Shown here piece by piece: positions 46,418 through 56,966 of a DNA stretch of 64,000 nt. Every line of letters starts with the position of its first letter. Position 1 is the first letter of the stretch. Origin of the DNA: a virus; IMG/VR virus record IMGVR_UViG_3300035181_002344. The stretch is one strand, 5' to 3'. The translations under genes were made by a program, and so were the position numbers. The notes beneath the pieces are model-generated. The model worked only from the letters and a program-made list of their open reading frames with translations, was not told where the DNA came from and searched no databases.

Positions 46418-46630
46418 CATGCCTCCACTTTGCGATGGAGGCTTATGGACTACCTCATCTCTGTTGTCTTTTAAACGAGAAGTCCTTTCTCGTTTTAGTC
46501 GCTTGAATGAATTTGCATTCAAGTGAGCATCAGCGTTAGTTCCCTATGCTCGTTCTTCCCTAGCGTCGTGAACTAATTATATAGCCAGCACGAGCAATTT
46601 CGTGAACAGACCATATAATTAGCACGCGCT
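46418..46630 (-). ncRNA. Structured RNA with group I intron-like catalytic core
   Basis: P7 G-C(bulge)-GACUA/UAGUCC, AAAUUGC J3/4-P4, P9 hairpin and terminal G; P1 and P6 not convincingly found. Confidence 0.45.
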
Positions 46631-47213
46631 ATTTAATTTCATAGAAATGAGCTTTGTCGAATTCAAATAATTGTCTTGCATATATCAAGACTATGAATTC
46701 CTCGTATGTTAAAGAGAAATCTTCGGTTGGATTTAATTCTTCTGGGCGAATTTCAAGTACTATATTTGCTGGTTTTAACCGAAGTTTAATAACTTGACGT
46801 TTTGTTTTCTTCTTAAATAAATTACCTAAAGCTTTTTCTAATGTCGGCGGAAAAAATTTCATGTCTATTTCTGAAGATATAAAATGCTTAGCTTTATATT
46901 CTTGCAATTTCTCAATTAATTCATTCTTCAGATTTGTTGACGACATATATACTTTAGGCGTTGGAATAACAAACTCTGGCTTATATTTATCTTGTATAAA
47001 CTCTTTACCATAGATTTTTTCTACTTTGCTAACAATCGCTGCCTTGCTTTTAACTTGATCATGTACCCAAAAAATATCATGCTGACTAGCACTATCTTTA
47101 TCTGGTAAATTACTAACATCATATAATCCAAATGGAATTCCGATATTTTCAAATGTTTGTCTTACGGTATCCATGTCAATATCGGATAAATTACTTGTAA
47201 ATACTAGTATCAT
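46629..47213 (-). CDS. Hypothetical protein
   Basis: TAATG-coupled ORF. Confidence 0.55.
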   Translation of the reverse strand: MILVFTSNLSDIDMDTVRQTFENIGIPFGLYDVSNLPDKDSASQHDIFWVHDQVKSKAAIVSKVEKIYGKEFIQDKYKPEFVIPTPKVYMSSTNLKNELIEKLQEYKAKHFISSEIDMKFFPPTLEKALGNLFKKKTKRQVIKLRLKPANIVLEIRPEELNPTEDFSLTYEEFIVLIYARQLFEFDKAHFYEIK

Positions 47214-48058
47214 TATTCCACCGTATTAAATATTTCGACCATAGTAACGCTTAACATCTTACCTAAAATAGCTCTATAAACAGCCTCTGGATTATTGTAT
47301 TTGTCCACAGTTGGTATTCTAAAATCATATACAGGCCTGTTTACAATAACCGGAGCTGGAGTTTTTCTTGTTCTTTTACTTGTTTTCTTTTGAATAGTTT
47401 GTATTTCGACGGATTCTGCTGTTTCTTTCTCTAAAGTTGTTTCTTCGCTTAAATTCTCAATTTCGGTTTTCAATGATACTCCAAATAATGTCGTTAATCC
47501 ATCCCAAGTTCTAAATTTTAGATTTTCTAGTTTTAGCACCTCTGCACTAATTGATTTTGGCAGGTTTGAATAATACTCCCATATCCCATTTGCAAACATT
47601 TCTTCTGTGCCATTTGGATCCTTAAAGGTTGGAATAAGGCCTAAGTCGATATCAAGGCCAAGAGTACCGCCGATTACATTAATATGATTTGTTAAGAATT
47701 GGTCGGTATTTTCAAATGTAATAGCTTGTATATATTCAGGATCGATTTTTCCTATTACACGGTAATACTCAATATCGCCTATTTCAGTTGGTTCGATTGA
47801 TAACTTTAGCTGCGGGAAATTAATATTATTCCATACATTTTGATTAGCATTATCATTGTAGTTTACAAGGTTTAATTTCTTTCCTTCAATCATAATGCGA
47901 ACAATAGATTCATAAATCTTTTGTCGGTTATTTTTTGTTGCACCTGAAAGATAGAAGCCAAAACGCTTTGTATCATCATGGTATTTTATGCTATATCTTC
48001 CTGGAGTAATTTCTCCTGCTCTATCTGCGACTCTGCATTTATACATTGTTGGCTCCAA
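47213..48058 (-). CDS. Hypothetical protein
   Basis: 281-aa ORF. Confidence 0.55.
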   Translation of the reverse strand: MEPTMYKCRVADRAGEITPGRYSIKYHDDTKRFGFYLSGATKNNRQKIYESIVRIMIEGKKLNLVNYNDNANQNVWNNINFPQLKLSIEPTEIGDIEYYRVIGKIDPEYIQAITFENTDQFLTNHINVIGGTLGLDIDLGLIPTFKDPNGTEEMFANGIWEYYSNLPKSISAEVLKLENLKFRTWDGLTTLFGVSLKTEIENLSEETTLEKETAESVEIQTIQKKTSKRTRKTPAPVIVNRPVYDFRIPTVDKYNNPEAVYRAILGKMLSVTMVEIFNTVE

Positions 48059-48417
48059 AAATTAATTAATATTTGTGCTTGTATTTGCGCAACTCTTATT
48101 ATACTTGCATCTATATCTAAAACAAAGTTTGTGGCAATGACAATTATATCGTCTTCTTTTGCTCTAGCAATATCATTTTTAACGATATTAAGCAAAGACT
48201 CTTTGTCTGAAGATATTTTTAATTCTTCGCCTACACGATATAGATAATACTTGTTTCCGTCTTCTGTTTCTTCTTCGAAGAATATATAATAAGTTGCTTT
48301 TCGATCGCCTATTAGCGTATTTACTATAGAATTAAAAAGCCGAGGATTTTCTCGGCCTTTGAATTCCATTAATTGCTCAAAATACGCCCACATAGGCATA
48401 TTAATAAGAGCATTCAT
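47986..48417 (-). CDS. Hypothetical protein
   Basis: AAGGAG RBS; operon-packed. Confidence 0.55.
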   Translation of the reverse strand: MNALINMPMWAYFEQLMEFKGRENPRLFNSIVNTLIGDRKATYYIFFEEETEDGNKYYLYRVGEELKISSDKESLLNIVKNDIARAKEDDIIVIATNFVLDIDASIIRVAQIQAQILINFWSQQCINAESQIEQEKLLQEDIA

Positions 48418-48418
48418 T

Positions 48419-48892
48419 TTAATCTCCTTCTACAATAGCATTTTCTACGCCAAGGATAATATTTTGGTTATCTTCAATAAAACGCTTTAACATCAAAAAT
48501 TCTCCCATTGTTAATGGCACTGATACTTTAAGATCACCAGAGAAGAATGTTATAAAAAATGTTCCCGGATTTTGTCCTGATGCTATCATTAATTTTTTGT
48601 AAATAGCTTGTTCGTCTGCTTTGCCTGCATTTGGATTATGCACTAAGTCTAATTTCATTTCTTGTCCGCGTTGATAATTATATATAGCATTATAGAATAG
48701 CGGATAGTCATTTGAACTAAAAGCAAATGTTATTTTTTTGCTCCAATCATAGACTTTGTCTTTTCCTGGTATTGCGTTTGCGACATTAAATAATAAAGCA
48801 CCTTGTTTTTGTAGAAAGCCATTATTTGCTTTGGCTCTTATAATATCGCATTGTAAGGCTGCACTTTTTTTGTAGATTTGAAAATGATTCAT
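48419..48892 (-). CDS. Whirly-family ssDNA-binding protein
   Basis: YKKSAAL, YDWSKKITFAFS, HNP..GKADE...KKL, VPLT.GEF match the plant Whirly motifs YKGKAAL, YDWSRKQVFSLS, HDP..GKSDE...KVL, IPVT.AEF as recalled. Confidence 0.8.
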   Translation of the reverse strand: MNHFQIYKKSAALQCDIIRAKANNGFLQKQGALLFNVANAIPGKDKVYDWSKKITFAFSSNDYPLFYNAIYNYQRGQEMKLDLVHNPNAGKADEQAIYKKLMIASGQNPGTFFITFFSGDLKVSVPLTMGEFLMLKRFIEDNQNIILGVENAIVEGD

Positions 48893-48893
48893 C

Positions 48894-49154
48894 TTATTCT
48901 TCCTTATTTGTATTATCTTGTTTATAGCTATCGGGTCCCATTAATTTATATAAGTTTTCATGTGGGACTGGTTCTCTTTTGCCTGTGAATTTTCCTCGTT
49001 TTTCTGGATCTAAATGATCACGAGAATAGAAGATAGCGCCACAATTTAGACAAGCTTCATCTGCGTCAAAAGCTTTCCATATTTTGTTAACTTTGTCGCT
49101 ACCACAAAACGGGCATTTGTTATCGAGAATATTTGGTGTTGTGTCAGTTGTCAT
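48894..49154 (-). CDS. Zn-ribbon protein
   Basis: CPFCGS...CLNCG; start overlaps RT stop. Confidence 0.65.
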   Translation of the reverse strand: MTTDTTPNILDNKCPFCGSDKVNKIWKAFDADEACLNCGAIFYSRDHLDPEKRGKFTGKREPVPHENLYKLMGPDSYKQDNTNKEE

Positions 49155-49992
49155 TTAAGATTCTCCGTGCAAGTTTTTGTAAATAAAAATAGTTTTTCTT
49201 GTTATCTGCTAGATTAAGTTGTTCGATTTTTCCACGTATATGCGGATTGATCTGACGAATATTAATTAGCTCTTTGATAATGTTCTGAATATATTGACGC
49301 TCAATATTTCGTTTAACATTAACCACGATGCCTAAAACTAATTGTCTTTGATAATAAGGCATCACTTTACTTTTTCGTAAGTTTAGTTCGAAACCATATC
49401 GCTTACAAATATCGTTAATAATCGATATAGTTTCTTTTGGAACAGAGTTACCAGAGATATATAGATTATCTCCATAATTTGAATAACTCCATTGGTTTCG
49501 ATCGCATATTTCCTGTATACTAACATCAATCGGTTGTCGTATAGCATTAGCGATATGTGGAGATGTTATGAAACCTTGTGGAAGTTTTCCATTGTACGTT
49601 AATAATTCAATAAAATCTTGTAAATCAATGTTAAGCAAATTAAGTAACTCGGGGATTTTCTGATTATAAACAAATAGCCCGATTAGATGATCTTTCGTAA
49701 TGTTATCATAGAAATTCTTAATATCGGCTTCTAAAACGTATCGTTTGCCAACATGAATATTAGCACAGTCTCCCCTTGATCTTCCTTTTATCCAAGCATA
49801 GCTTGCATGATGAATATTAAAAACATTGTTATCAATGAAATAGTCAAGAATATATTTCTGTGCCTTTTTATATTCTGAATTTGGAGCAATAATATGACGA
49901 CGTTTTATTTTGCCTTTCTTTTTTCTATGCTGCACATACGTTGATACATAATTTGCTTTATTGGCAAGTATATTCTTTATAAGCTGACGCAT
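49144..49992 (-). CDS. Minimal retron-type reverse transcriptase with YGDN motif
   Basis: R.I.AP...K..Q, CANIH (NAxxH region X), ADIKNFYDNI, LPQG..TSP.IAN, YGDN, N..K, VLGIVVN (VTG region Y). Confidence 0.9.
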   Translation of the reverse strand: MRQLIKNILANKANYVSTYVQHRKKKGKIKRRHIIAPNSEYKKAQKYILDYFIDNNVFNIHHASYAWIKGRSRGDCANIHVGKRYVLEADIKNFYDNITKDHLIGLFVYNQKIPELLNLLNIDLQDFIELLTYNGKLPQGFITSPHIANAIRQPIDVSIQEICDRNQWSYSNYGDNLYISGNSVPKETISIINDICKRYGFELNLRKSKVMPYYQRQLVLGIVVNVKRNIERQYIQNIIKELINIRQINPHIRGKIEQLNLADNKKNYFYLQKLARRILNDN

Positions 49993-49997
49993 GTTAT

Positions 49998-50804
49998 TTA
50001 CGATGCTTTTTGTAATAAAGTTGCTAAATCAAACTCTTTTTCCACGAATGGGTTAGTATTCCATTCAATAAATCTCACTTTGCCGGTTCTATTAAATAAT
50101 ACCATGTCATATTTAAGGTCGTTGTCAACATACATAGAATAGACCATATTAGTTATCAGTGTTCCGGCGAGTAAATTTACAGCAAGAGATTGTGGATTGA
50201 GTAATGCATTGACGGCACAATTTTGTCTTTGTTCTCTTTCGACTGCTTCTTCTTTCTCTGCTTCTTCATTATTAAATTCATGCGGATAAACATCAACAAC
50301 TGTTCTTGACTTAGTAATTAACGAGTCATAATAAACTATTTGTCCAAATGTATCGGTATTTCCGCAGCTTAACCATGCTATTGATTGAGAATTAGTAAAC
50401 CGATTTCTTGATCTAACAAATTCATTAATTATTAAGCGTGTACGGATATTATCTACAGTATCTATAATCAAATATGTGTCTGGATTGCTATAATATCCTG
50501 ATCTATATGGATCGCAGATAGAATAGATATTATCTTTATCTAAAAAGCTATTTATATATGATACCTTTACTCCAAAAGCAAAGCCATAGCGTTTAGCTAA
50601 TACTTCTGCTTTATATTCTCCAATATCATCGACAACAAAATTTTGCCGATTACAATTTTTCTCTTCTACTTTATCTGCGTCCATAATTATAATATCCGGA
50701 GCATTAGGAAGATGACTAGCCATTCTAATGATATTTGGTATAGCATATCCTCCTGTTCCGCCAGCACCAACAAATAATATTGTGCTTCTTTTTGAGACGA
50801 CCAT
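49998..50804 (-). CDS. E1/ThiF ubiquitin-activating-like enzyme
   Basis: VGAGGTGG, D.D.VEEKN.NRQ, KAEVLA.RY, VDN...R, CA......Q...N catalytic Cys region. Confidence 0.92.
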   Translation of the reverse strand: MVVSKRSTILFVGAGGTGGYAIPNIIRMASHLPNAPDIIIMDADKVEEKNCNRQNFVVDDIGEYKAEVLAKRYGFAFGVKVSYINSFLDKDNIYSICDPYRSGYYSNPDTYLIIDTVDNIRTRLIINEFVRSRNRFTNSQSIAWLSCGNTDTFGQIVYYDSLITKSRTVVDVYPHEFNNEEAEKEEAVEREQRQNCAVNALLNPQSLAVNLLAGTLITNMVYSMYVDNDLKYDMVLFNRTGKVRFIEWNTNPFVEKEFDLATLLQKAS

Positions 50805-50806
50805 AT

Positions 50807-51751
50807 TTATCTTCTCCTGTTTTTGTAATAATCCTCGTATCCGAAGCCATATTGCATTGGATCTAAATAAGTGTGTATGCTTTCACTTGCAGGTGGATCT
50901 CCATAGATTGGTCTTGTGGATATTATTTCGTCGTCAAATAAATCGCCTTGAATAACTCTATCTTTAGTTTTGTAATCATTATTATTTGCTAGCCATTCGT
51001 TTACTCTATTTTCATAGAGACGATTAGACAACTTGTTTTCATAATCACCAAACATAGTAATATCAAATTCGTGTTTCCACAAAGGCTCAAAAACATCTTC
51101 TAAATTAAGATCAACTTTTTTATTTCCGAGTGCAAATCTTATTTGATATGTCGGATATATTTTAAATATATCGCCAATTACTAAGTGAATACTTTCTAAA
51201 TTTCGATGATCGGCATCATCAACTGCTGAAAATCTACCAGTCATTGTATGATGAGAATGTGCTTGTACTACTAAAATATTATCTTTATCCGACGGAAAAT
51301 TATCATGTTCTATATCCCATTCTACAAGAGCGCCTGAGATAATTTGTTTTGGAATCCAGAAAAAGAATTCTTGTCTTATTTTATTCCAATAAATTCGCAC
51401 ATAAACTTCTGTCTTATATTTTTGATATACCACACGGAACCATTCCAATATATCTAAAAACATTTTAGCTGGAACTTTTGGCACCTTTAATTGTATGCCT
51501 TCTTTTTGGTATTCGCCATTTACTATTCCCTTAAAATCATAACTAACTTCTTTAATAACAAAACGAGCTAAATCAGTTTCTTTAACAGTATATATACCGT
51601 CGTTTTGAATAAGCGTAGTTGAATTTACTCCCGGTTGAAAAGTATATGTTCCAATTTGTAGTACATGGCTATTATTTATTTGATTCCGTAGTTCATTTAT
51701 TGCTTGAAGTTCACTATCTGTGAAACCATTGTTTTGATTTTTCTTAGCCAT
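50807..51751 (-). CDS. JAB/MPN metallopeptidase (deubiquitinase-like; likely start 51751)
   Basis: TE...HSHH.M...FS..DD.D JAMM motif; AAGGAG RBS. Confidence 0.9.
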   Translation of the reverse strand: MAKKNQNNGFTDSELQAINELRNQINNSHVLQIGTYTFQPGVNSTTLIQNDGIYTVKETDLARFVIKEVSYDFKGIVNGEYQKEGIQLKVPKVPAKMFLDILEWFRVVYQKYKTEVYVRIYWNKIRQEFFFWIPKQIISGALVEWDIEHDNFPSDKDNILVVQAHSHHTMTGRFSAVDDADHRNLESIHLVIGDIFKIYPTYQIRFALGNKKVDLNLEDVFEPLWKHEFDITMFGDYENKLSNRLYENRVNEWLANNNDYKTKDRVIQGDLFDDEIISTRPIYGDPPASESIHTYLDPMQYGFGYEDYYKNRRR

Positions 51752-51765
51752 ATTTTGTTCTCCTT

Positions 51766-52425
51766 TTACCATAATTTTATTGCTTCTTTAATTGTTTTTC
51801 CTGACATTTGTCCACTTCTTAATATGTGAGAGGCCTCAACCCATTCTTGCTCTGATTGAAATGTAATGTTATTGACACGGCGGATATCATCCATATTAAC
51901 CAAATCCGTATTTCTTTCGGCATTAAACCACATATTAATAATTGTATTTAGTTCATGTAAACCATGAATACTTCTTAATTCTCTAGTTAAAACATCTCCC
52001 CAGCACAAACGTGCATCACCATAAACATTATTTAAGCGAACTTGGTATATTCTGGTATTTTCTCGTGGCGGATTAAAACTACTAAATATCGACGTATTAA
52101 TAACTTTATACATATTATTCTCTACCCGCAAATCAAATAAGAAATACAGATACGGATAGTGTAAATGATATTGTATATTAGAATATGTAAAATCAAGATA
52201 TTGCGTATTTCTACACACTAATACCTTCATGTTTACATCTTTAACTTCATACCATACTATCCATAGAGGCATAATCATACTTGATTCTTCTTTAATACTA
52301 AATAATTGCCTAAGCTCATCTATGGAAACTATTTTAGGTTCGTAAATATTGGCGCTTCCTTGTTTATTGATATTGTCTATAATCGCTATACGATCATATA
52401 CTGTTATATTAGCTATTTTGTTCAT
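51766..52425 (-). CDS. Prokaryotic E2 (family D/PRTRC-B-like) conjugating enzyme
   Basis: P.L.F...Y...L.NVY.D.RLCWG...F....N.DL motif with catalytic Cys. Confidence 0.8.
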   Translation of the reverse strand: MNKIANITVYDRIAIIDNINKQGSANIYEPKIVSIDELRQLFSIKEESSMIMPLWIVWYEVKDVNMKVLVCRNTQYLDFTYSNIQYHLHYPYLYFLFDLRVENNMYKVINTSIFSSFNPPRENTRIYQVRLNNVYGDARLCWGDVLTRELRSIHGLHELNTIINMWFNAERNTDLVNMDDIRRVNNITFQSEQEWVEASHILRSGQMSGKTIKEAIKLW

Positions 52426-53044
52426 CTGATAACTCCCTGATTAAAATCTTATGTATAAAATCCAGCGCTATGAAATATGATAATAAAGAAAAAGCAACCC
52501 TATGATTCCATATTGGAGATGAAGTAATAATAAGCGGATATCGAGTCTGCTCTTCTAATCCTGCATTTACAATTTGTATTAAGTAATTTGGTGCAGTATT
52601 ATCATCGCCGATATATTTCATAAAATCATTACGCAGAACATTCCATGCTTCTGCATATTTTGCTTTACCTTCACTTGTATCAACGATATTGTAAAATGTT
52701 GATGCTATAAAATTAGTAATAAAACGTGATAGCACTAATTGTAGCTCATAGCCCCTAGCTCGTGTTGTTGTTGCAGATGTTGAAAATGAACATCCGCCAA
52801 TATTTAAGACTGTTTGATGATGAGCTGCTGAATATTGTTCAATAAGAGGATTCATATTTTCTCTATAATATTTTTCAACAGCTTTAATAATTGTAAACAT
52901 TATTCTTCTGTTGTAACTTGCGGTTAATTGCCATTGGTTGCGTGTAGTAATAAATCTTTTATCTAATGCGTATTTAACCAGCAGCAATAGCCGTAAGTTT
53001 GTTGATACGTTTTGCATGTTAGCAATTACTTTGTCGTCATACAT
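52409..53044 (-). CDS. Hypothetical protein in Ubl operon
   Basis: Overlaps both neighbours. Confidence 0.55.
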   Translation of the reverse strand: MYDDKVIANMQNVSTNLRLLLLVKYALDKRFITTRNQWQLTASYNRRIMFTIIKAVEKYYRENMNPLIEQYSAAHHQTVLNIGGCSFSTSATTTRARGYELQLVLSRFITNFIASTFYNIVDTSEGKAKYAEAWNVLRNDFMKYIGDDNTAPNYLIQIVNAGLEEQTRYPLIITSSPIWNHRVAFSLLSYFIALDFIHKILIRELSDEQNS

Positions 53045-53294
53045 AGTTTTTACTCATTTTAAATGTTGATTGAACATAACGTAATCTATCAGTAATAATA
53101 TAATTGTAGTTTATTTCAAAATTAGTTAGACTTTTTGCTTCTTCCGCTGTCATTTCTGCGATTCTCCGTAATGATGGATCAGCACATAACTCATATAAGA
53201 GTTTAAGTTGAGGATTATCTTGTAATCCTGCGAATTTGGTTAAAATATCTTGTCCGGTTAACATAAGATCTCCGTAATAAAAAAGCCCCTCCAC
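53037..53294 (-). CDS. Hypothetical protein in Ubl operon
   Basis: 85 aa, overlaps downstream ORF. Confidence 0.5.
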   Translation of the reverse strand: MEGLFYYGDLMLTGQDILTKFAGLQDNPQLKLLYELCADPSLRRIAEMTAEEAKSLTNFEINYNYIITDRLRYVQSTFKMSKNYV

Positions 53295-53321
53295 ATAACG
53301 TAGAGGGACTTTGGTTGTGGA

Positions 53322-53510
53322 TTATTTACCAAGTTTGCCAGCTTTCATTTTGAAATTGATAACTTTGTTTCCAGAATCATCTGTATAAACTTCTGCTACT
53401 GTGTCATCAATTTCTGGTGCATGACCACGCAATGCAGCTTTAGCAGCATCTACACTAATGTCACCTGGAACTGTTGCTGTCATATCAGCATATTTTACGA
53501 TTGTTGCCAT
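53322..53510 (-). CDS. Ubiquitin-like small protein (PRTRC-C-like)
   Basis: 62 aa; PEI..A...V.F..KAG.LG-K tail; AAGGAG RBS; upstream of E2-JAB-E1. Confidence 0.75.
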   Translation of the reverse strand: MATIVKYADMTATVPGDISVDAAKAALRGHAPEIDDTVAEVYTDDSGNKVINFKMKAGKLGK

Positions 53511-53524
53511 GGATACGTTACTCC

Positions 53525-53821
53525 TTAATTTTGTGCGTTATTAATTAATGATTGAAATACGCTTGCTGTTAACGGTTCTCTTCTTGGTTGTTGAGATTCC
53601 GTTTGCTCACGTTGTACGTAATTATTTAAGATATCTTGGAATGTTTCCTGAGTTAAGACAAGGGTGTCATTAAGCTGATCGTTGACATTATTCAAATTGT
53701 CTTCCGACATTTGATCATTGTCGTCAAGACGATATTCTACTGTTTCAACGCCGCTGAATTCGAGTACGCCACCTGGAACGTATAACTCAAGAACGCTTCC
53801 TTCTAATCTGAAGCTAATCAT
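53525..53821 (-). CDS. Hypothetical acidic protein
   Basis: GGAGG RBS; probable first gene of the Ubl operon. Confidence 0.6.
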   Translation of the reverse strand: MISFRLEGSVLELYVPGGVLEFSGVETVEYRLDDNDQMSEDNLNNVNDQLNDTLVLTQETFQDILNNYVQREQTESQQPRREPLTASVFQSLINNAQN

Positions 53822-53873: not shown

Positions 53874-56800
53874 TTAATAATCCACATCTTCTTCGGCGAA
53901 TTCTGCCTCTTCTTCATCTATTTCTTCAATAACTGAAGATGATTCAAGAATATCGTTGATATACGGGCGAATTATTTTACAGTATCCTATTTTAGATAGA
54001 TGATTATCATCTATGTTGTTTAGATTATCAACAAGGCCTGCTATATATTCTGAATCTCCGCCTGAATGAATTCTAGAAATTGTAATTATGGTTTTATCCT
54101 CTTTCGCTAATTTCATGGCTTGTAAATATAAATCAGCATCTTCAGGAGTCATATCTAGCATATTTGTTAATATAGGCTTGATTAACTCTACTTGCTCTTC
54201 TCCAAAATTAGATAAAGCAAATACATCATAACCAGAAGCCCCACCTTCTATATGTTTAACTCCTTCAATAACCGTATCTTGCAGAATGCGCGAAGTGATA
54301 TGCTGTAGGTACATCATCTTATGTTTATTGATATTACCATTAGCATACATCCATTCAATTGCAGTATGGATTCTCCATAAGTCTACAGTCCCCATTCCTA
54401 TTCTTGTTTTGGCTATTGCTGCGTCAGCTAATATATCAGCAAATTTATCGCGTGAAATTTCATAATATTTGAATGGTTTCTCTTCAACATCTAGAAATTT
54501 CTCGTTTTTGCTAATTTCGCTTTTGATATATTGTGTTATCCAACGTTTTTCATAACCTAACAAATAGTCAGGATTAGCAGAATATTTAGCTAATTCTTGT
54601 TGAATAGATTGATGCAGAGGCACAGCAATAGGATATAAGTCGCCATCTGTATCTGATTTGTCAAGCAGGATATCTATCGTATTACGCAGAACAGCGCCGG
54701 CAGTATATTCTGGCAACACAATCTGATTGATATCCATTTTGTATTCTTTCTTAAGATATTTAGCAAACTGATTAAGCGTAAGAACTTCTCTTGTATGGAA
54801 TTGAAATCGCCAAATAACTGGGTTTCTCACTCCAATTTCATAGATACGTTTAAGACCCGTTTGCTTTTTGAATGCTTGGATTTGTTTAATGAGTCTTTGG
54901 TCAAGAACAACTGTCGTTCTTCTTGGCACATAGACACTTGCTAGTTGTTTGAGATTTCCTCCAGGTAATTCTGGGGAAGTAACTTGAGATAATGCGGCTC
55001 TTTTAGAAAATATCTCATGATTGATATAAAAGATATACTTCTTGAGATTTTCTAAAAGCTGTTCTTTTGTCGCTTCTCGTTTGTAAAGTTTTCGAAGGGT
55101 CATTAATATAAATTGAGAAAATGTAACAAATTGCGGATAAGTAACTGTACCCGCCCCAACATATGTCATTTGCTCAATAATATTAAAGCTTGGAAATCTT
55201 ATATATCTATTCTCATATTTTACATAGAATCCTTGGTTAAATGGATTAAGTAGGATATTATTAGTATTATATGAGACACTCCATGACGATGGATTAAAAT
55301 AACTCCTCGATATTTTATCTTGAAAAACTGGGTCGTCCCATTGATATACTGGAGTTCCATCATTATATCGGTTGAAAGATCTCAATTTGAGGAGTTGCTT
55401 TAAAATTCCTTTGTTTGATCCGTTTATGTAATTGTCATAGATTAGATTTGCGGCTTTTTCAAGATGATGATTATTTGCATTATACATATATTTCATCGTT
55501 TCTTGCATTACACGTACACCATTACTTTTACAATCATTACTAAGATCGGTAACGCCAAAACTCATAAGACCAAAGTAAACCTTATAAGTTTTGCCCATAT
55601 AGACCCAGTCAACTTGTTGTAATTCTTGGCACATAATGTTGACTTCATCTTCGGGATAATCATTAGCATTTAATGTGATAGAATCGTCTGGGCCATTTTC
55701 TGATAAAACAAAGTTTAACCAGCTCATTTTAATGCCATTGTGTCCGCTTTTAAGGGAAGTTGGACCAATGACCATCTGGACTGGTATTTTATCTTTGCCG
55801 AATTGTTTTGGTGGTATAATATATCCTAGATCCTCTCTTGGATGCGTAACACCTTTAAGTCCATAATCTGATATTAATCTAGCAACTCCCATTTTGGCTA
55901 CAATCTTCACGATAATTTTATAAGAGTTGTACATGGGGATTATATCTTCGATCACTCCACCTTTGTAATTAATATCATATATAACTGCAGGGAATCCTTC
56001 GAGATCATAAGCTATTATATCACCAGGATTTAATACATCGCCTTTTTGAGCTAAAATGACATCTTTGTTGGGAGTCATAAAAGTGCGGCGAACAAAGAAT
56101 TCTTTTTCGGCTAATTGCTTATTAATGAGTATCTCGCCAACGGATAATGTAAATTTACCTAGCGGCGATTGATCTTCAGTTTTGTCTGTTGTTATTGGTA
56201 TAAAAACAGTATAAGCATTAATCTTTTCTTTATTATTACTTTCAAATAAATGATCCTGTTCTGGCTCTAATGGCTGTAATAATTCACTGGTATAGTGCAA
56301 TCTTAGTCTTTCTGGCAAAGATGACTTAGGCTCATATATTGAAGTAATTGCGTTATCTGTAGAAGAATATCCTGCGGCTTGTATTTGCTTACCAAACAAG
56401 TTACAGTAAATTCCTTCGGATAATTCATCTACGCGAATTGGATCATTAAATAGCTTAGAATATTTCCTAATATCTTCTTCGGATTTTGGAATAGCGGATT
56501 CCCATAATGCTCTACCAATACAATCGTAATATTCCTTTTTATTATTCTTTTGTCTGAATGTTTTTACTATGCGAATACGATGCTCAATTTTTAGACGATT
56601 ATTATAACTGACAGGCTCTATTTTCATTAAGCCATCCAAAACTTTAGAAACATCTTTTCTAAGGAATTTATGATGTATATATTTATAGTCAGATCGCCTG
56701 AAATATTCTAGTCTATCCATTACAACAAGGATTAGCATTTTATCTACATCAAGAATGCATTCATCGTCGTCTAAATAGAAATATGGAGATAAACGAATAT

Positions 56801-56966
56801 CGTCTGCTGTCAATTTTGGAATGATAACTGGAGAATTAAACTGATTATTAAAAATTAACTCATAATGATCTCCGTTACGCATACGGAATAAAGATCCCGC
56901 ATAAAAATTTAATACATTATCCAAGCTATTAATTTTATCTAAACGTTCGAGTATTTTTTTATACAT
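53874..56966 (-). CDS. Single-chain two-barrel RNA polymerase (beta-like plus beta'-like segments)
   Basis: Beta-like RLISDYGLKGV and IPVQMVIGPTSL; beta'-like RNPVIW and catalytic KSDTDGD. Confidence 0.8.
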   Translation of the reverse strand: MYKKILERLDKINSLDNVLNFYAGSLFRMRNGDHYELIFNNQFNSPVIIPKLTADDIRLSPYFYLDDDECILDVDKMLILVVMDRLEYFRRSDYKYIHHKFLRKDVSKVLDGLMKIEPVSYNNRLKIEHRIRIVKTFRQKNNKKEYYDCIGRALWESAIPKSEEDIRKYSKLFNDPIRVDELSEGIYCNLFGKQIQAAGYSSTDNAITSIYEPKSSLPERLRLHYTSELLQPLEPEQDHLFESNNKEKINAYTVFIPITTDKTEDQSPLGKFTLSVGEILINKQLAEKEFFVRRTFMTPNKDVILAQKGDVLNPGDIIAYDLEGFPAVIYDINYKGGVIEDIIPMYNSYKIIVKIVAKMGVARLISDYGLKGVTHPREDLGYIIPPKQFGKDKIPVQMVIGPTSLKSGHNGIKMSWLNFVLSENGPDDSITLNANDYPEDEVNIMCQELQQVDWVYMGKTYKVYFGLMSFGVTDLSNDCKSNGVRVMQETMKYMYNANNHHLEKAANLIYDNYINGSNKGILKQLLKLRSFNRYNDGTPVYQWDDPVFQDKISRSYFNPSSWSVSYNTNNILLNPFNQGFYVKYENRYIRFPSFNIIEQMTYVGAGTVTYPQFVTFSQFILMTLRKLYKREATKEQLLENLKKYIFYINHEIFSKRAALSQVTSPELPGGNLKQLASVYVPRRTTVVLDQRLIKQIQAFKKQTGLKRIYEIGVRNPVIWRFQFHTREVLTLNQFAKYLKKEYKMDINQIVLPEYTAGAVLRNTIDILLDKSDTDGDLYPIAVPLHQSIQQELAKYSANPDYLLGYEKRWITQYIKSEISKNEKFLDVEEKPFKYYEISRDKFADILADAAIAKTRIGMGTVDLWRIHTAIEWMYANGNINKHKMMYLQHITSRILQDTVIEGVKHIEGGASGYDVFALSNFGEEQVELIKPILTNMLDMTPEDADLYLQAMKLAKEDKTIITISRIHSGGDSEYIAGLVDNLNNIDDNHLSKIGYCKIIRPYINDILESSSVIEEIDEEEAEFAEEDVDY

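What the first reader, a model, noticed from the sequence alone, without database searches (positions are those of the whole stretch)
48419..53821. Phage operon coupling a full ubiquitin-like conjugation cascade to a retron-type RT and a Whirly ssDNA-binding protein
Seen: on the minus strand, with gaps of 0-27 nt or overlaps, the order is acidic ORF, Ubl (ends AGKLGK), two unknown ORFs, E2 (NVY..RLCWG), JAB (HSH..FS..D), E1/ThiF, RT, Zn ribbon, Whirly. The RT starts 5 nt after the E1 stop and its stop overlaps the Zn-ribbon start. Known: Ubl/E2-D/JAB/ThiF cassettes (PRTRC-like) occur on mobile elements, bacterial Bil-type systems conjugate Ubls to phage proteins, and retron RTs normally pair with an adjacent ncRNA and a toxic effector. 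Inference: this may be one functional system in which RT-made ssDNA (bound by Whirly) and Ubl conjugation are linked, for counter-defence, exclusion of competing phages or tagging of host proteins. The Lys after the last Gly implies JAB-dependent maturation. I do not recall this combination being described.
Basis: partly seen in the sequence, partly recalled or inferred. Interest (0 to 1): 0.93.

Follow-up and report, generated by a model that had tools for sequence, protein, structure and literature searches.

The report
Phage ubiquitin-like kit wired to reverse transcriptase
A large uncultured phage carries one tightly packed gene block that joins a complete ubiquitin-like protein-tagging kit to an unusual retron-type reverse transcriptase, a zinc-ribbon protein and a Whirly DNA-binding protein; I found this pairing in no paper, and it is kept intact in every related phage sampled.

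Summary
All ten minus-strand ORFs are present with the stated spacing. E1 (ThiF), RT (retron clade) and Whirly match profiles firmly. JAB has a complete JAMM motif. E2 belongs to Prok-E2_D at family level and has an invariant Asn and Cys. The 62-aa protein behaves as a Ubl: β-grasp-like model, conserved terminal Gly, and poly-Ubl or extended precursors in relatives.

The order E1→RT→Zn→Whirly is invariant in eight diverged lineages (E1 identity down to about 31%), and all genes are under purifying selection. RT–E1 linkage recurs in other arrangements. Of 57 related phage RT loci, 28 have an adjacent ThiF gene. Only 11 of 63 phage E1 loci have an RT, and none of 80 bacterial ones do.

This clade's RT is a derived subfamily: motif C is YGDN, NAxxH is CAxxH, and VTG is VLG. 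No adjacent ncRNA was found.

The Whirly link is weaker. Outside this clade Whirly sits 2–6 kb from the RT, next to ClpP, and the phage also has an ordinary SSB.

Function is untested. No paper searched describes the pairing. This scan had already noted the pairing of a Ubl kit with a retron RT on at least 16 other genomes.

The parts
53525..53821 (-). Acidic 98-aa protein, first gene of the block
   Evidence: ORF. Conserved in L002, L007, L010 and L013 by custom HMM. No family hit. dN/dS 0.31.
53322..53510 (-). Ubiquitin-like protein, 62 aa, ends ...AGKLG-K
   Evidence: AF2 ββ-α-ββ model, pLDDT 85.5. Weak β-grasp matches to protein L, GB1 and ubiquitin. Terminal Gly in 8 homologs; poly-Ubl or extended forms in 5 others.
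53282..53312 (-). Terminator-like hairpin plus U-tract directly after the Ubl stop codon
   Evidence: 14-bp stem, 6 GC pairs, then TTTTATTA. An equivalent hairpin with unrelated stem sequence occurs in 7 of 8 lineages.
53037..53294 (-). Conserved unknown protein (85 aa from GTG; more likely 75 aa from the ATG at 53264)
   Evidence: L002 has the 75-aa form. HMM hits in clades c1 and c2. The GTG start would overlap the hairpin.
52409..53044 (-). Conserved unknown 211-aa protein
   Evidence: Homologs in L002, L007, L010, L013 and L014. No family, fold or atlas lead.
51766..52425 (-). E2-like conjugating enzyme (divergent Prok-E2_D), catalytic Cys141
50807..51772 (-). JAB/JAMM metallopeptidase (PRTRC_A-like), 321 aa
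   Evidence: PRTRC_A 3.6e-11. E...HxH...S...D invariant in 29 of 29 homologs.
49998..50804 (-). E1-like ThiF adenylyltransferase (PRTRC_ThiF-like), 268 aa
   Evidence: Invariant GxGGTGG, D42, R53, D118 and C196 in 30 homologs.
49144..49992 (-). Retron-clade reverse transcriptase, 282 aa, motif C = YGDN
   Evidence: dN/dS 0.10.
48894..49154 (-). Zn-ribbon protein, 86 aa, start overlaps the RT stop
   Evidence: CxxC...CxxC plus a conserved C-terminal FTG..P.P...LYK in six lineages. Found only with the DN-type RT. dN/dS 0.05.
48419..48892 (-). Whirly-family protein, 157 aa
   Evidence: PF08536 2e-13, 50.8 bits against a cut-off of 23. Always follows the Zn ribbon in this clade. dN/dS 0.08.
47986..48417 (-). 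Conserved unknown 143-aa protein, coupled downstream of Whirly (1-nt gap)
   Evidence: Present in all c1 lineages that reach this far.
47213..48058 (-). Conserved unknown 281-aa protein that overlaps the previous gene
   Evidence: Membership of the system is uncertain.

Best explanation
This is one phage-encoded module in which a PRTRC-type ubiquitin-like conjugation kit works together with a retron-derived reverse transcriptase.

Steps read from sequence: the Ubl gene is followed by a leaky terminator, so the tag should be made in excess over the enzymes. The Ubl ends in Gly-Lys. JAB has a full JAMM site, E1 a full adenylation site and E2 an invariant Cys.

Steps inferred from the chemistry known for these families: JAB trims the last Lys, E1 adenylates the exposed Gly, the tag passes to E2 Cys141 and is then attached to target proteins.

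The RT is translated in step with E1, and the Zn-ribbon protein and Whirly are translated in step with the RT.

My proposal is an inference by analogy with retrons, where an RT-DNA complex gates an effector, and with CBASS Cap2/Cap3, where an E1-E2 and a JAB tune a nucleotide-making enzyme. The RT, Zn-ribbon and Whirly trio would make and hold a single-stranded DNA product early in infection, within the replication gene block. This nucleoprotein would either license Ubl conjugation or be its target. The outcome would protect phage replication or exclude rivals.

The clade-specific changes (YGDN, CAxxH, VLG, gain of the Zn ribbon, no cis ncRNA) suggest that the RT has left the classical msr-primed mode.
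For: - E1->RT->Zn->Whirly is invariant in eight lineages, with E1 identity down to about 31%.
- Every phage with the flanking 1030-aa gene keeps the RT.
- Gaps and overlaps are tight.
- RT-E1 linkage recurs in other orders: E1-x-RT in c2 and c3, an overlap in L071, and RT-E2-x-x-JAB-E1 in L151 and L168.
- 28 of 57 related phage RT loci have a ThiF gene adjacent on the same strand.
- The RT label is clustered on the E1 tree: 6 changes against 24.5 when shuffled.
- dN/dS is 0.05-0.19 for the enzymes.
- DN at motif C is kept across about 20 clusters at 50% identity.
- Catalytic motifs are intact.
- Relatives include Ubl precursors.
- The hairpin after the Ubl gene is conserved in structure.
Against: - The Ubl kit works without an RT elsewhere: 52 of 63 phage E1 loci and 80 of 80 bacterial loci have none.
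- In those loci the slot after E1 holds other genes.
- No RT fusion to any kit protein appears among the best 150 relatives.
- Much of the conservation sits inside one phage family in which the flanks are conserved too, so vertical inheritance could explain it.
- No template RNA was found.
- The effect of Asn in place of the second catalytic Asp on activity is unknown.
- The c4 arrangement has five opposite-strand genes between E1 and RT.
- Whirly is only loosely linked outside this clade.
- No interaction or conjugation has been measured.
Confidence: 0.55

Rival explanations
1. These are two independent modules that happen to be neighbours. One is a self-contained PRTRC-like Ubl kit. The other is a separate RT-Zn-Whirly unit (a degenerate retron or a replication accessory). 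They are kept side by side only because they sit in a conserved early or replication block inherited vertically by one phage family.
For: - Most phage and all bacterial cassettes of this type lack an RT.
- Flanking genes (the 1030-aa protein, RNR, RecA) are conserved along with the block in c1.
- There are no RT fusions to kit proteins.
- The position after E1 is variable in other phages.
Against: - Linkage survives changes of flank (c2 has GroES/GroEL and ClpP, and no 1030-aa gene) and changes of gene order (c6 has the RT first).
- A large separate RT clade is paired with minimal ThiF genes.
- Half of the related phage RTs have an adjacent ThiF gene.
- Translational coupling of E1 to RT is kept in all c1 lineages.
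Confidence: 0.3
2. The RT of this clade no longer polymerises. With YGDN, CAxxH and VLG it would be a nucleic-acid-binding scaffold that, together with the Zn ribbon and Whirly, recognises RNA or ssDNA for the Ubl kit.
For: - The second motif C Asp is Asn in nearly all of about 20 clusters.
- Retron hallmark motifs are altered in the same clade (Mestre 2020).
- No template RNA was found.
Against: - Motif A D90, the first motif C Asp D175, QG, SP, K207 and G221 are invariant, and dN/dS is 0.10.
- L010 keeps FGDD.
- From established knowledge, GDN is the native active motif of mononegavirus polymerases, so Asn at this position need not abolish catalysis.
Confidence: 0.15
3. Whirly is not part of the system. 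It would be a recombination or replication ssDNA-binding protein of the phage backbone that merely lies downstream.
For: - In c2-type phages Whirly is fixed next to ClpP and upstream of RecA, 2.2-5.8 kb from the RT, with NAD-salvage genes and homing endonucleases in between.
- L178 has Whirly-ClpP with no E1 or RT within 8 kb.
- Whirly is absent from the c4, c5, c6 and minimal ThiF-RT arrangements.
Against: - Among the E1 loci, Whirly was never seen without an RT (7 of 7).
- It is coupled to within 1-30 nt of the Zn ribbon in all c1 lineages.
- The phage has a separate OB-fold SSB.
- Whirly homologs are rare, only 21 clusters, and the INPHARED phage collection has no tblastn match to this Whirly.
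Confidence: 0.45

Closest known systems
PRTRC cassette (ParB-related, ThiF-related cassette; NCBIfam TIGR03735-03742) of plasmids and integrative elements
   Same: Best-scoring models for E1 (PRTRC_ThiF), JAB (PRTRC_A) and E2 (PRTRC_B / Prok-E2_D). A small Ubl ending in Gly. Extra small conserved proteins. Carried on mobile DNA.
   Different: All scores are far below the equivalog cut-offs. No ParB-like gene is in the 154-kb record. It is carried by a large phage. It is coupled to an RT, a Zn ribbon and Whirly, which none of 80 bacterial loci have.
Retrons (RT + msr-msd ncRNA + effector; 13 types in Mestre et al. 2020, PMC7736814)
   Same: The RT falls in the retron clade (St85, III-A, X and II-A profiles). 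It keeps the H of NAxxH and the G of VTG. It is encoded next to non-RT partner genes.
   Different: There is no non-coding space or recognisable msr-msd next to the RT. The motifs are changed to CAxxH, VLG and YGDN. The partner is a Ubl conjugation kit, which that classification does not mention. It is a conserved gene of a lytic-looking large phage rather than a bacterial defence island.
Bil (BilABCD) bacterial anti-phage ubiquitin-like systems (Hör et al. 2024; Chambers et al. 2024, as cited)
   Same: A four-part kit: Ubl, E2, JAB and E1.
   Different: Different protein families (Prok-E2_D and PRTRC-like). Encoded by the phage, not the host. It has an RT partner. No profile membership was shown.
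CBASS type II Cap2 (E1-E2 fusion) / Cap3 (JAB)
   Same: An E1/E2 plus a JAB regulate a nucleotide-polymerising enzyme encoded beside them. The E1 gives weak hits to the PADLOC Cap2-type 'E1-E2' models.
   Different: E1 and E2 are separate proteins and a free Ubl is present. The neighbouring enzyme is an RT, not a CD-NTase. The RT does not end in Gly.
Plant and organellar Whirly ssDNA-binding proteins (PF08536)
   Same: Full-length match to the Whirly domain, above the Pfam cut-off.
   Different: It is phage-encoded, has no transit peptide or plant context, and is paired with an RT and a Zn ribbon.

Membership tests
Retron | RT belongs to the retron or retron-like RT clade | tested here: met
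   The best NCBIfam and PADLOC hits are all retron RTs (St85 5e-39, RT_III-A 2e-44). The group II intron RT model scores far lower, 1.8e-12. The score is below the St85 exception-model cut-off, so no specific type is assigned.
Retron | NAxxH (region X) and VTG (region Y) motifs | tested here: inconclusive
   The window has CANIH and VLG. The most conserved residues (H, G) are kept, but N and T are replaced across the whole clade. c2 and c3 relatives keep NAxxH or NGxxH and VTG.
Retron | Cognate msr-msd ncRNA next to the RT | tested here: not met
   The gap upstream of the RT is 5 nt and there is an 11-nt overlap downstream, in all c1 lineages. Rfam finds nothing at E<=1 over 40-58 kb. The only structured gap nearby (46428-46629, z -7.4) is not conserved in L005. 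An ncRNA elsewhere in the genome is not excluded.
Retron | Production of msDNA | not testable with these tools
   Needs nucleic-acid extraction from infected cells or an expression host.
PRTRC cassette | ThiF-family E1 scoring as PRTRC_ThiF | tested here: inconclusive
   It is the best NCBIfam hit, but at 85 bits against a cut-off of 144.75.
PRTRC cassette | PRTRC_A (JAB) and PRTRC_B (E2) partners | tested here: inconclusive
   PRTRC_A scores 43 bits against 101.8, and PRTRC_B 14.6 against 131. The catalytic motifs are intact.
PRTRC cassette | ParB-related partner gene | tested here: not met
   PF02195 finds nothing in the 154-kb record, which is about 75% complete.
Prok-E2_D (PF14460) | Profile match and conserved catalytic Cys | tested here: met
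   The window protein alone is below threshold (15.2 bits against 25). However, 17 of 23 aligned homologs match, best 8e-25. N133 and C141 are invariant in 24 of 24. UBC/E2 chains dominate the fold search at Z about 5, on a low-confidence model.
JAB/JAMM metallopeptidase | E...HxH...S...D metal site | tested here: met
   E122, H172, H174, S182 and D185 are invariant in 29 of 29. Prok-JAB scores 21.6 bits, just under its cut-off of 25.
Ubiquitin-like β-grasp modifier | β-grasp fold with a flexible C-terminal tail ending in Gly | tested here: inconclusive
   The model is ββ-α-ββ at pLDDT 85.5. The best PDB matches are protein L, GB1 and ubiquitin, but at E>=0.06. The terminal Gly is conserved and poly-Ubl precursors occur in relatives. 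Conjugation itself is not shown.
Whirly (PF08536) | Full-length match above the gathering score | tested here: met
   50.8 bits against 23, covering profile positions 1-135 of 136.
Bil system | BilA-D family membership | not tested
   PADLOC returned no Bil-named hit for any of the ten proteins, and I did not check whether that library holds Bil models. The resemblance is in architecture only.

The most novel reading that the evidence does not exclude
A previously undescribed class of phage systems in which reverse-transcribed DNA and ubiquitin-like protein conjugation are mechanistically coupled. For example, an RT-Zn-Whirly-ssDNA particle could switch on, recruit or be modified by the E1/E2/JAB/Ubl kit. 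The 'DN' RT subfamily would have replaced msr-primed synthesis with a new template or priming mode. This would be the first link between retroelement chemistry and Ubl signalling, used by phages for counter-defence or to exclude rival phages.
Probability: 0.35. Interest if true: 0.9.

Novelty: new variant of a known kind. Interest (0 to 1): 0.8.

Why it matters
Ubiquitin-like conjugation in bacteria and retron reverse transcription have each recently emerged as immune mechanisms, but they have been studied separately and on the host side. Here both sit in one conserved phage operon, and about half of the related phage RTs have a ThiF partner.

If the two are functionally wired, this defines a new system type. 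It would give a natural entry point to the unknown function of PRTRC-like cassettes and add a new effector or regulator logic for retron-type RTs. It would also provide an RT subfamily with a stable Asp-to-Asn change in its catalytic loop, which is of interest for polymerase mechanism and possibly for retron-based DNA-writing tools.

The system is experimentally tractable: about 5.4 kb and ten small genes.

Tried and rejected
- Megablast of the 11-kb region against INPHARED phages found no match.
- Single-protein scans of viral contigs with the RT and with E1 found nothing. Alignment-based scans were needed.
- The Whirly alignment was too divergent for a pattern scan, and there was no tblastn hit for Whirly in cultured phages.
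- Rfam found no msr or other family in 40-58 kb of the window or in seven other RT loci.
- I considered the 200-nt structured gap at 46428-46629 as the RT's ncRNA. I rejected it because the gap at the same position in L005 shares no sequence, and L010 and L013 have no gap there.
- The gaps ahead of the RT in the minimal ThiF-RT group (270-390 nt) could not be aligned well enough to test structure.
- The 'structural protein' label on the E1 homolog of Salmonella phage Arash cannot be taken as evidence of virion packaging. That proteome lists 116 proteins, including ribonucleotide reductases.
- I downgraded the c4 arrangement (RT 3.8 kb after E1) because five opposite-strand genes intervene.
- The atlas search on the 211-aa unknown gave no usable lead.
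- The E2 AF2 model was poor (pLDDT 60.7), so I used it only as supporting evidence.
- The rest of the L178 contig could not be searched because the record is not held.
- I looked for Rosetta-stone fusions of the RT with kit proteins and found none in the best 150.

Full report
**Setting**

The window is bases 53958-117957 of a 154-kb IMG/VR virus record that CheckV rates about 75% complete. The block lies on the minus strand, inside the replication and nucleotide-metabolism region. A 1030-aa protein with no family hit lies upstream. A class II ribonucleotide reductase, RecA/UvsX and a DnaE-type polymerase lie downstream. DNA-level search finds no close relative among cultured phages.

**Observation**

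All ten ORFs exist at the stated coordinates, with the stated gaps and overlaps.

- **E1:** a ThiF-family protein (Pfam 7e-19). Its best NCBIfam model is PRTRC_ThiF, at 4e-24 and below the cut-off.
- **JAB:** scores best against PRTRC_A (3.6e-11). The full JAMM site (E122, H172, H174, S182, D185) is invariant in 29 of 29 homologs.
- **E2:** barely detectable alone (Prok-E2_D E = 0.018). However, 17 of 23 aligned family members match Prok-E2_D (best 8e-25), and N133 and C141 are invariant in 24 of 24. A Foldseek-independent fold search on a low-confidence model is topped almost entirely by UBC/E2 enzymes, including bacterial BubCD and a CdnG-E2 complex, at Z about 5.
- **Ubl:** the 62-aa protein has no profile hit. 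It folds confidently (pLDDT 85.5) as ββ-α-ββ with a floppy tail. Its nearest solved folds are protein L, GB1 and ubiquitin, all weak at E >= 0.06.
- **Ubl C-terminus:** the strongest evidence is comparative. Eight homologs from other cassettes end exactly on Gly. The window and its 96% twin add one Lys, and L015 adds one Cys. L057, L063 and L089 encode four tandem repeats, each ending KAGTKG. L054 encodes two repeats, and L038 has an 85-aa extension. Precursors that must be cut after the Gly are therefore normal in this family.
- **RT:** matches RVT_1 (5.5e-18) and, far better, retron RT models (St85 5e-39, PADLOC RT_III-A 2e-44).
- **Whirly:** matches PF08536 over its full length, above the cut-off.
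- **Zn ribbon:** keeps CxxC...CxxC and a C-terminal FTG..P.P...LYK motif in six lineages.

**Conservation**

Database searches gave relatives at graded distances. The complete order recurs in L002 (RT 96% identical), L005/L006 (49%), L007/L008, L010/L011, L013 and L015. That order is: acidic protein, Ubl, two unknown proteins, E2, JAB, E1, RT, Zn ribbon, Whirly, then two further unknown proteins.

An exhaustive HMMER search with the RT profile found only about 20 clusters (at 50% identity) scoring below E 1e-67. The most distant of these, P0135, again sits in E1-RT-Zn-Whirly-d143. That makes eight lineages with no exception.

Comparing the window with L002, every gene is under purifying selection: RT dN/dS 0.10, Zn 0.05, Whirly 0.08, E1 0.12, E2 0.11, JAB 0.19, Ubl 0.15.

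**Is the RT tied to the kit beyond one phage family?**

I scanned IMG/VR with E1 and RT alignments, taking 80 loci from each, and scored all loci with HMMs built from the syntenic genes.

- Of 63 E1 loci with at least 5 kb on both sides, 50 have JAB and 43 have E2. Only 11 have an RT, and 7 have Whirly, always with an RT.
- Of 80 bacterial loci holding the nearest E1 relatives, mostly Clostridia MAGs, 77 have JAB and none has an RT or Whirly.
- Cultured jumbo phages such as Bacillus phage KLEB27-3 also carry the kit without an RT.
- In RT-less phage cassettes, the slot after E1 holds a DUF6094 methyltransferase, an RNase H-like RVT_3 protein, a DnaA_N-domain protein or NAPRTase.

So the kit is a module that does not need an RT in general.

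The reverse view is different. Of 57 fully flanked loci centred on related phage RTs, 31 contain a ThiF-family gene, and in 28 it is adjacent on the same strand. Pfam confirms ThiF at 1e-18 to 7e-27.

The arrangements differ between groups:

- **c2 and c3:** E1, one gene, then RT.
- **L071:** E1 and RT overlap.
- **L151, L152, L159, L168:** a tight RT-E2-x-x-JAB-E1 operon.
- **Minimal ThiF group:** a 34-member RT clade (99% support) is paired mostly with a minimal ThiF gene. In these loci a 270-390-nt non-coding gap often lies ahead of the RT, where a retron ncRNA would sit.
- **c4:** five opposite-strand genes lie between E1 and RT, so I discount it.

On the E1 tree the RT label needs 6 changes, against 24.5 for shuffled labels. 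A single origin is not excluded. c2 has different flanks (GroES/GroEL and ClpP, with no 1030-aa gene) yet keeps E1, RT and Whirly.

**The RT of this clade is a derived subfamily**

- Motif A Asp (D90) and the first motif C Asp (D175) are invariant everywhere.
- The second motif C Asp is Asn (YGDN) in the window and in nearly all of the roughly 20 closest clusters. L010 has FGDD. c2 to c6 have YADD.
- In the same clade NAxxH reads CAxxH and VTG reads VLG. The H and G, which Mestre et al. 2020 call the most conserved residues, are kept.
- The Zn ribbon occurs only with this RT type.
- There is no non-coding space beside the RT in any lineage, and Rfam finds nothing.
- The one structured gap nearby (46428-46629, z = -7.4) is not conserved in L005, the one relative that keeps a gap there.

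What the RT copies is unknown.

**Whirly**

In this clade Whirly is coupled to the Zn ribbon, with gaps of 1-30 nt. In c2-type phages it lies next to ClpP, 2.2-5.8 kb from the RT, with NAD-salvage genes and homing endonucleases in between. One contig (L178) has Whirly-ClpP with no E1 or RT within 8 kb.

The phage has a separate OB-fold SSB. Whirly homologs are rare, only 21 clusters, and the cultured-phage collection has no tblastn match to this one. I rate Whirly's membership of the system at about even odds.

**Operon architecture**

A 14-bp GC-rich hairpin with a U-tract follows the Ubl stop codon. Equivalent hairpins with unrelated stem sequences occur in 7 of 8 lineages across c1 and c2. 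This points to partial termination, which would make the tag more abundant than its enzymes.

**Interpretation**

The best-supported reading (0.55) is a single module joining a PRTRC-type Ubl kit to a retron-derived RT.

- **Shown:** gene content, intact catalytic motifs, coupling, conservation and recurrence.
- **Inferred from family chemistry:** JAB trims Lys62, E1 adenylates Gly61, and the tag passes through E2 Cys141 to targets.
- **Inferred by analogy with retrons and CBASS Cap2/Cap3:** an RT-Zn-Whirly nucleoprotein gates the conjugation or is modified by it.

The main rival (0.3) is two neighbouring but independent modules inherited together. Whether the DN-type RT still polymerises is open. 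From established knowledge, GDN is the native active motif of mononegavirus polymerases.

**Literature and earlier notes**

Full-text searches that combined an RT or retron term with ThiF, some adding JAB, ubiquitin-like, phage or jumbo phage, found no paper describing the pairing. The main text of the retron classification paper contains none of these terms.

This scan has already noted a phage Ubl kit joined to a retron-type RT on at least 16 other genomes, several with ncRNAs beside the RT. Those are unchecked AI notes. My own loci independently show such arrangements. The present window is the ncRNA-less variant with YGDN, a Zn ribbon and Whirly.

Noticed in passing
window 53874-56966 (-): A 1030-aa protein directly upstream of the block has no Pfam or PHROG hit. 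It contains a DTDGD string reminiscent of the DxDGD metal site of multisubunit-type RNA polymerases. It is conserved (97% identity to L002, dN/dS 0.04) and present in all c1 lineages.
   Followed up: no
window 46428-46629 (-): This 200-nt intergenic region folds very stably (-87.7 kcal/mol, z -7.4), with a long hairpin of about 26 bp plus four short ones. It is not conserved in the gap at the same position in L005, and L010 and L013 have no gap there.
   Followed up: partly
L131:6630-10960 and about 20 other viral loci (L113, L118, L122, L137, L161, L170 ...): A separate, well-supported clade of phage retron-type RTs of about 380 aa. Each is preceded on the same strand by a minimal ThiF gene of about 225 aa, and often by a 270-390-nt non-coding gap where a retron ncRNA would lie. 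In L131 a 229-aa protein with a faint JAB hit and a 517-aa coiled-coil protein lie upstream.
   Followed up: partly
L057:4657-5361, L063:4861-5598, L089:4861-5598, L054:5798-6172: Phage cassettes without an RT encode tandem poly-Ubl proteins, with two or four repeats each ending KAGTKG. They are analogous to polyubiquitin precursors.
   Followed up: partly
L057:10767-11447; L017:10708-12069; L025:8024-8962: In RT-less phage Ubl cassettes the gene after E1 is often one that acts on nucleic acids: an RNase H-like RVT_3 protein, a DUF6094 methyltransferase or a DnaA_N-domain protein.
   Followed up: no
L014:12090-12425 (c2 phages): In c2, the place of the Zn ribbon after the RT is taken by a 111-aa protein with a weak SpoVG match (E 0.0024). 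A conserved 110-aa protein sits between E1 and RT.
   Followed up: no
L010:14746-17949: The class II ribonucleotide reductase of this relative carries an intein (Intein_splicing hit), which the window's copy lacks.
   Followed up: no
G000:C1:138185-138475 (outside the window): The phage encodes a conventional OB-fold SSB (PF00436, 9.5e-14), so Whirly is not its only ssDNA-binding protein.
   Followed up: yes
window 53525-53821 (-): The acidic 98-aa first gene is the fastest-evolving member of the block (dN/dS 0.31) and is confined to clade c1. A DNA-mimic or inhibitor role is conceivable but untested.
   Followed up: no
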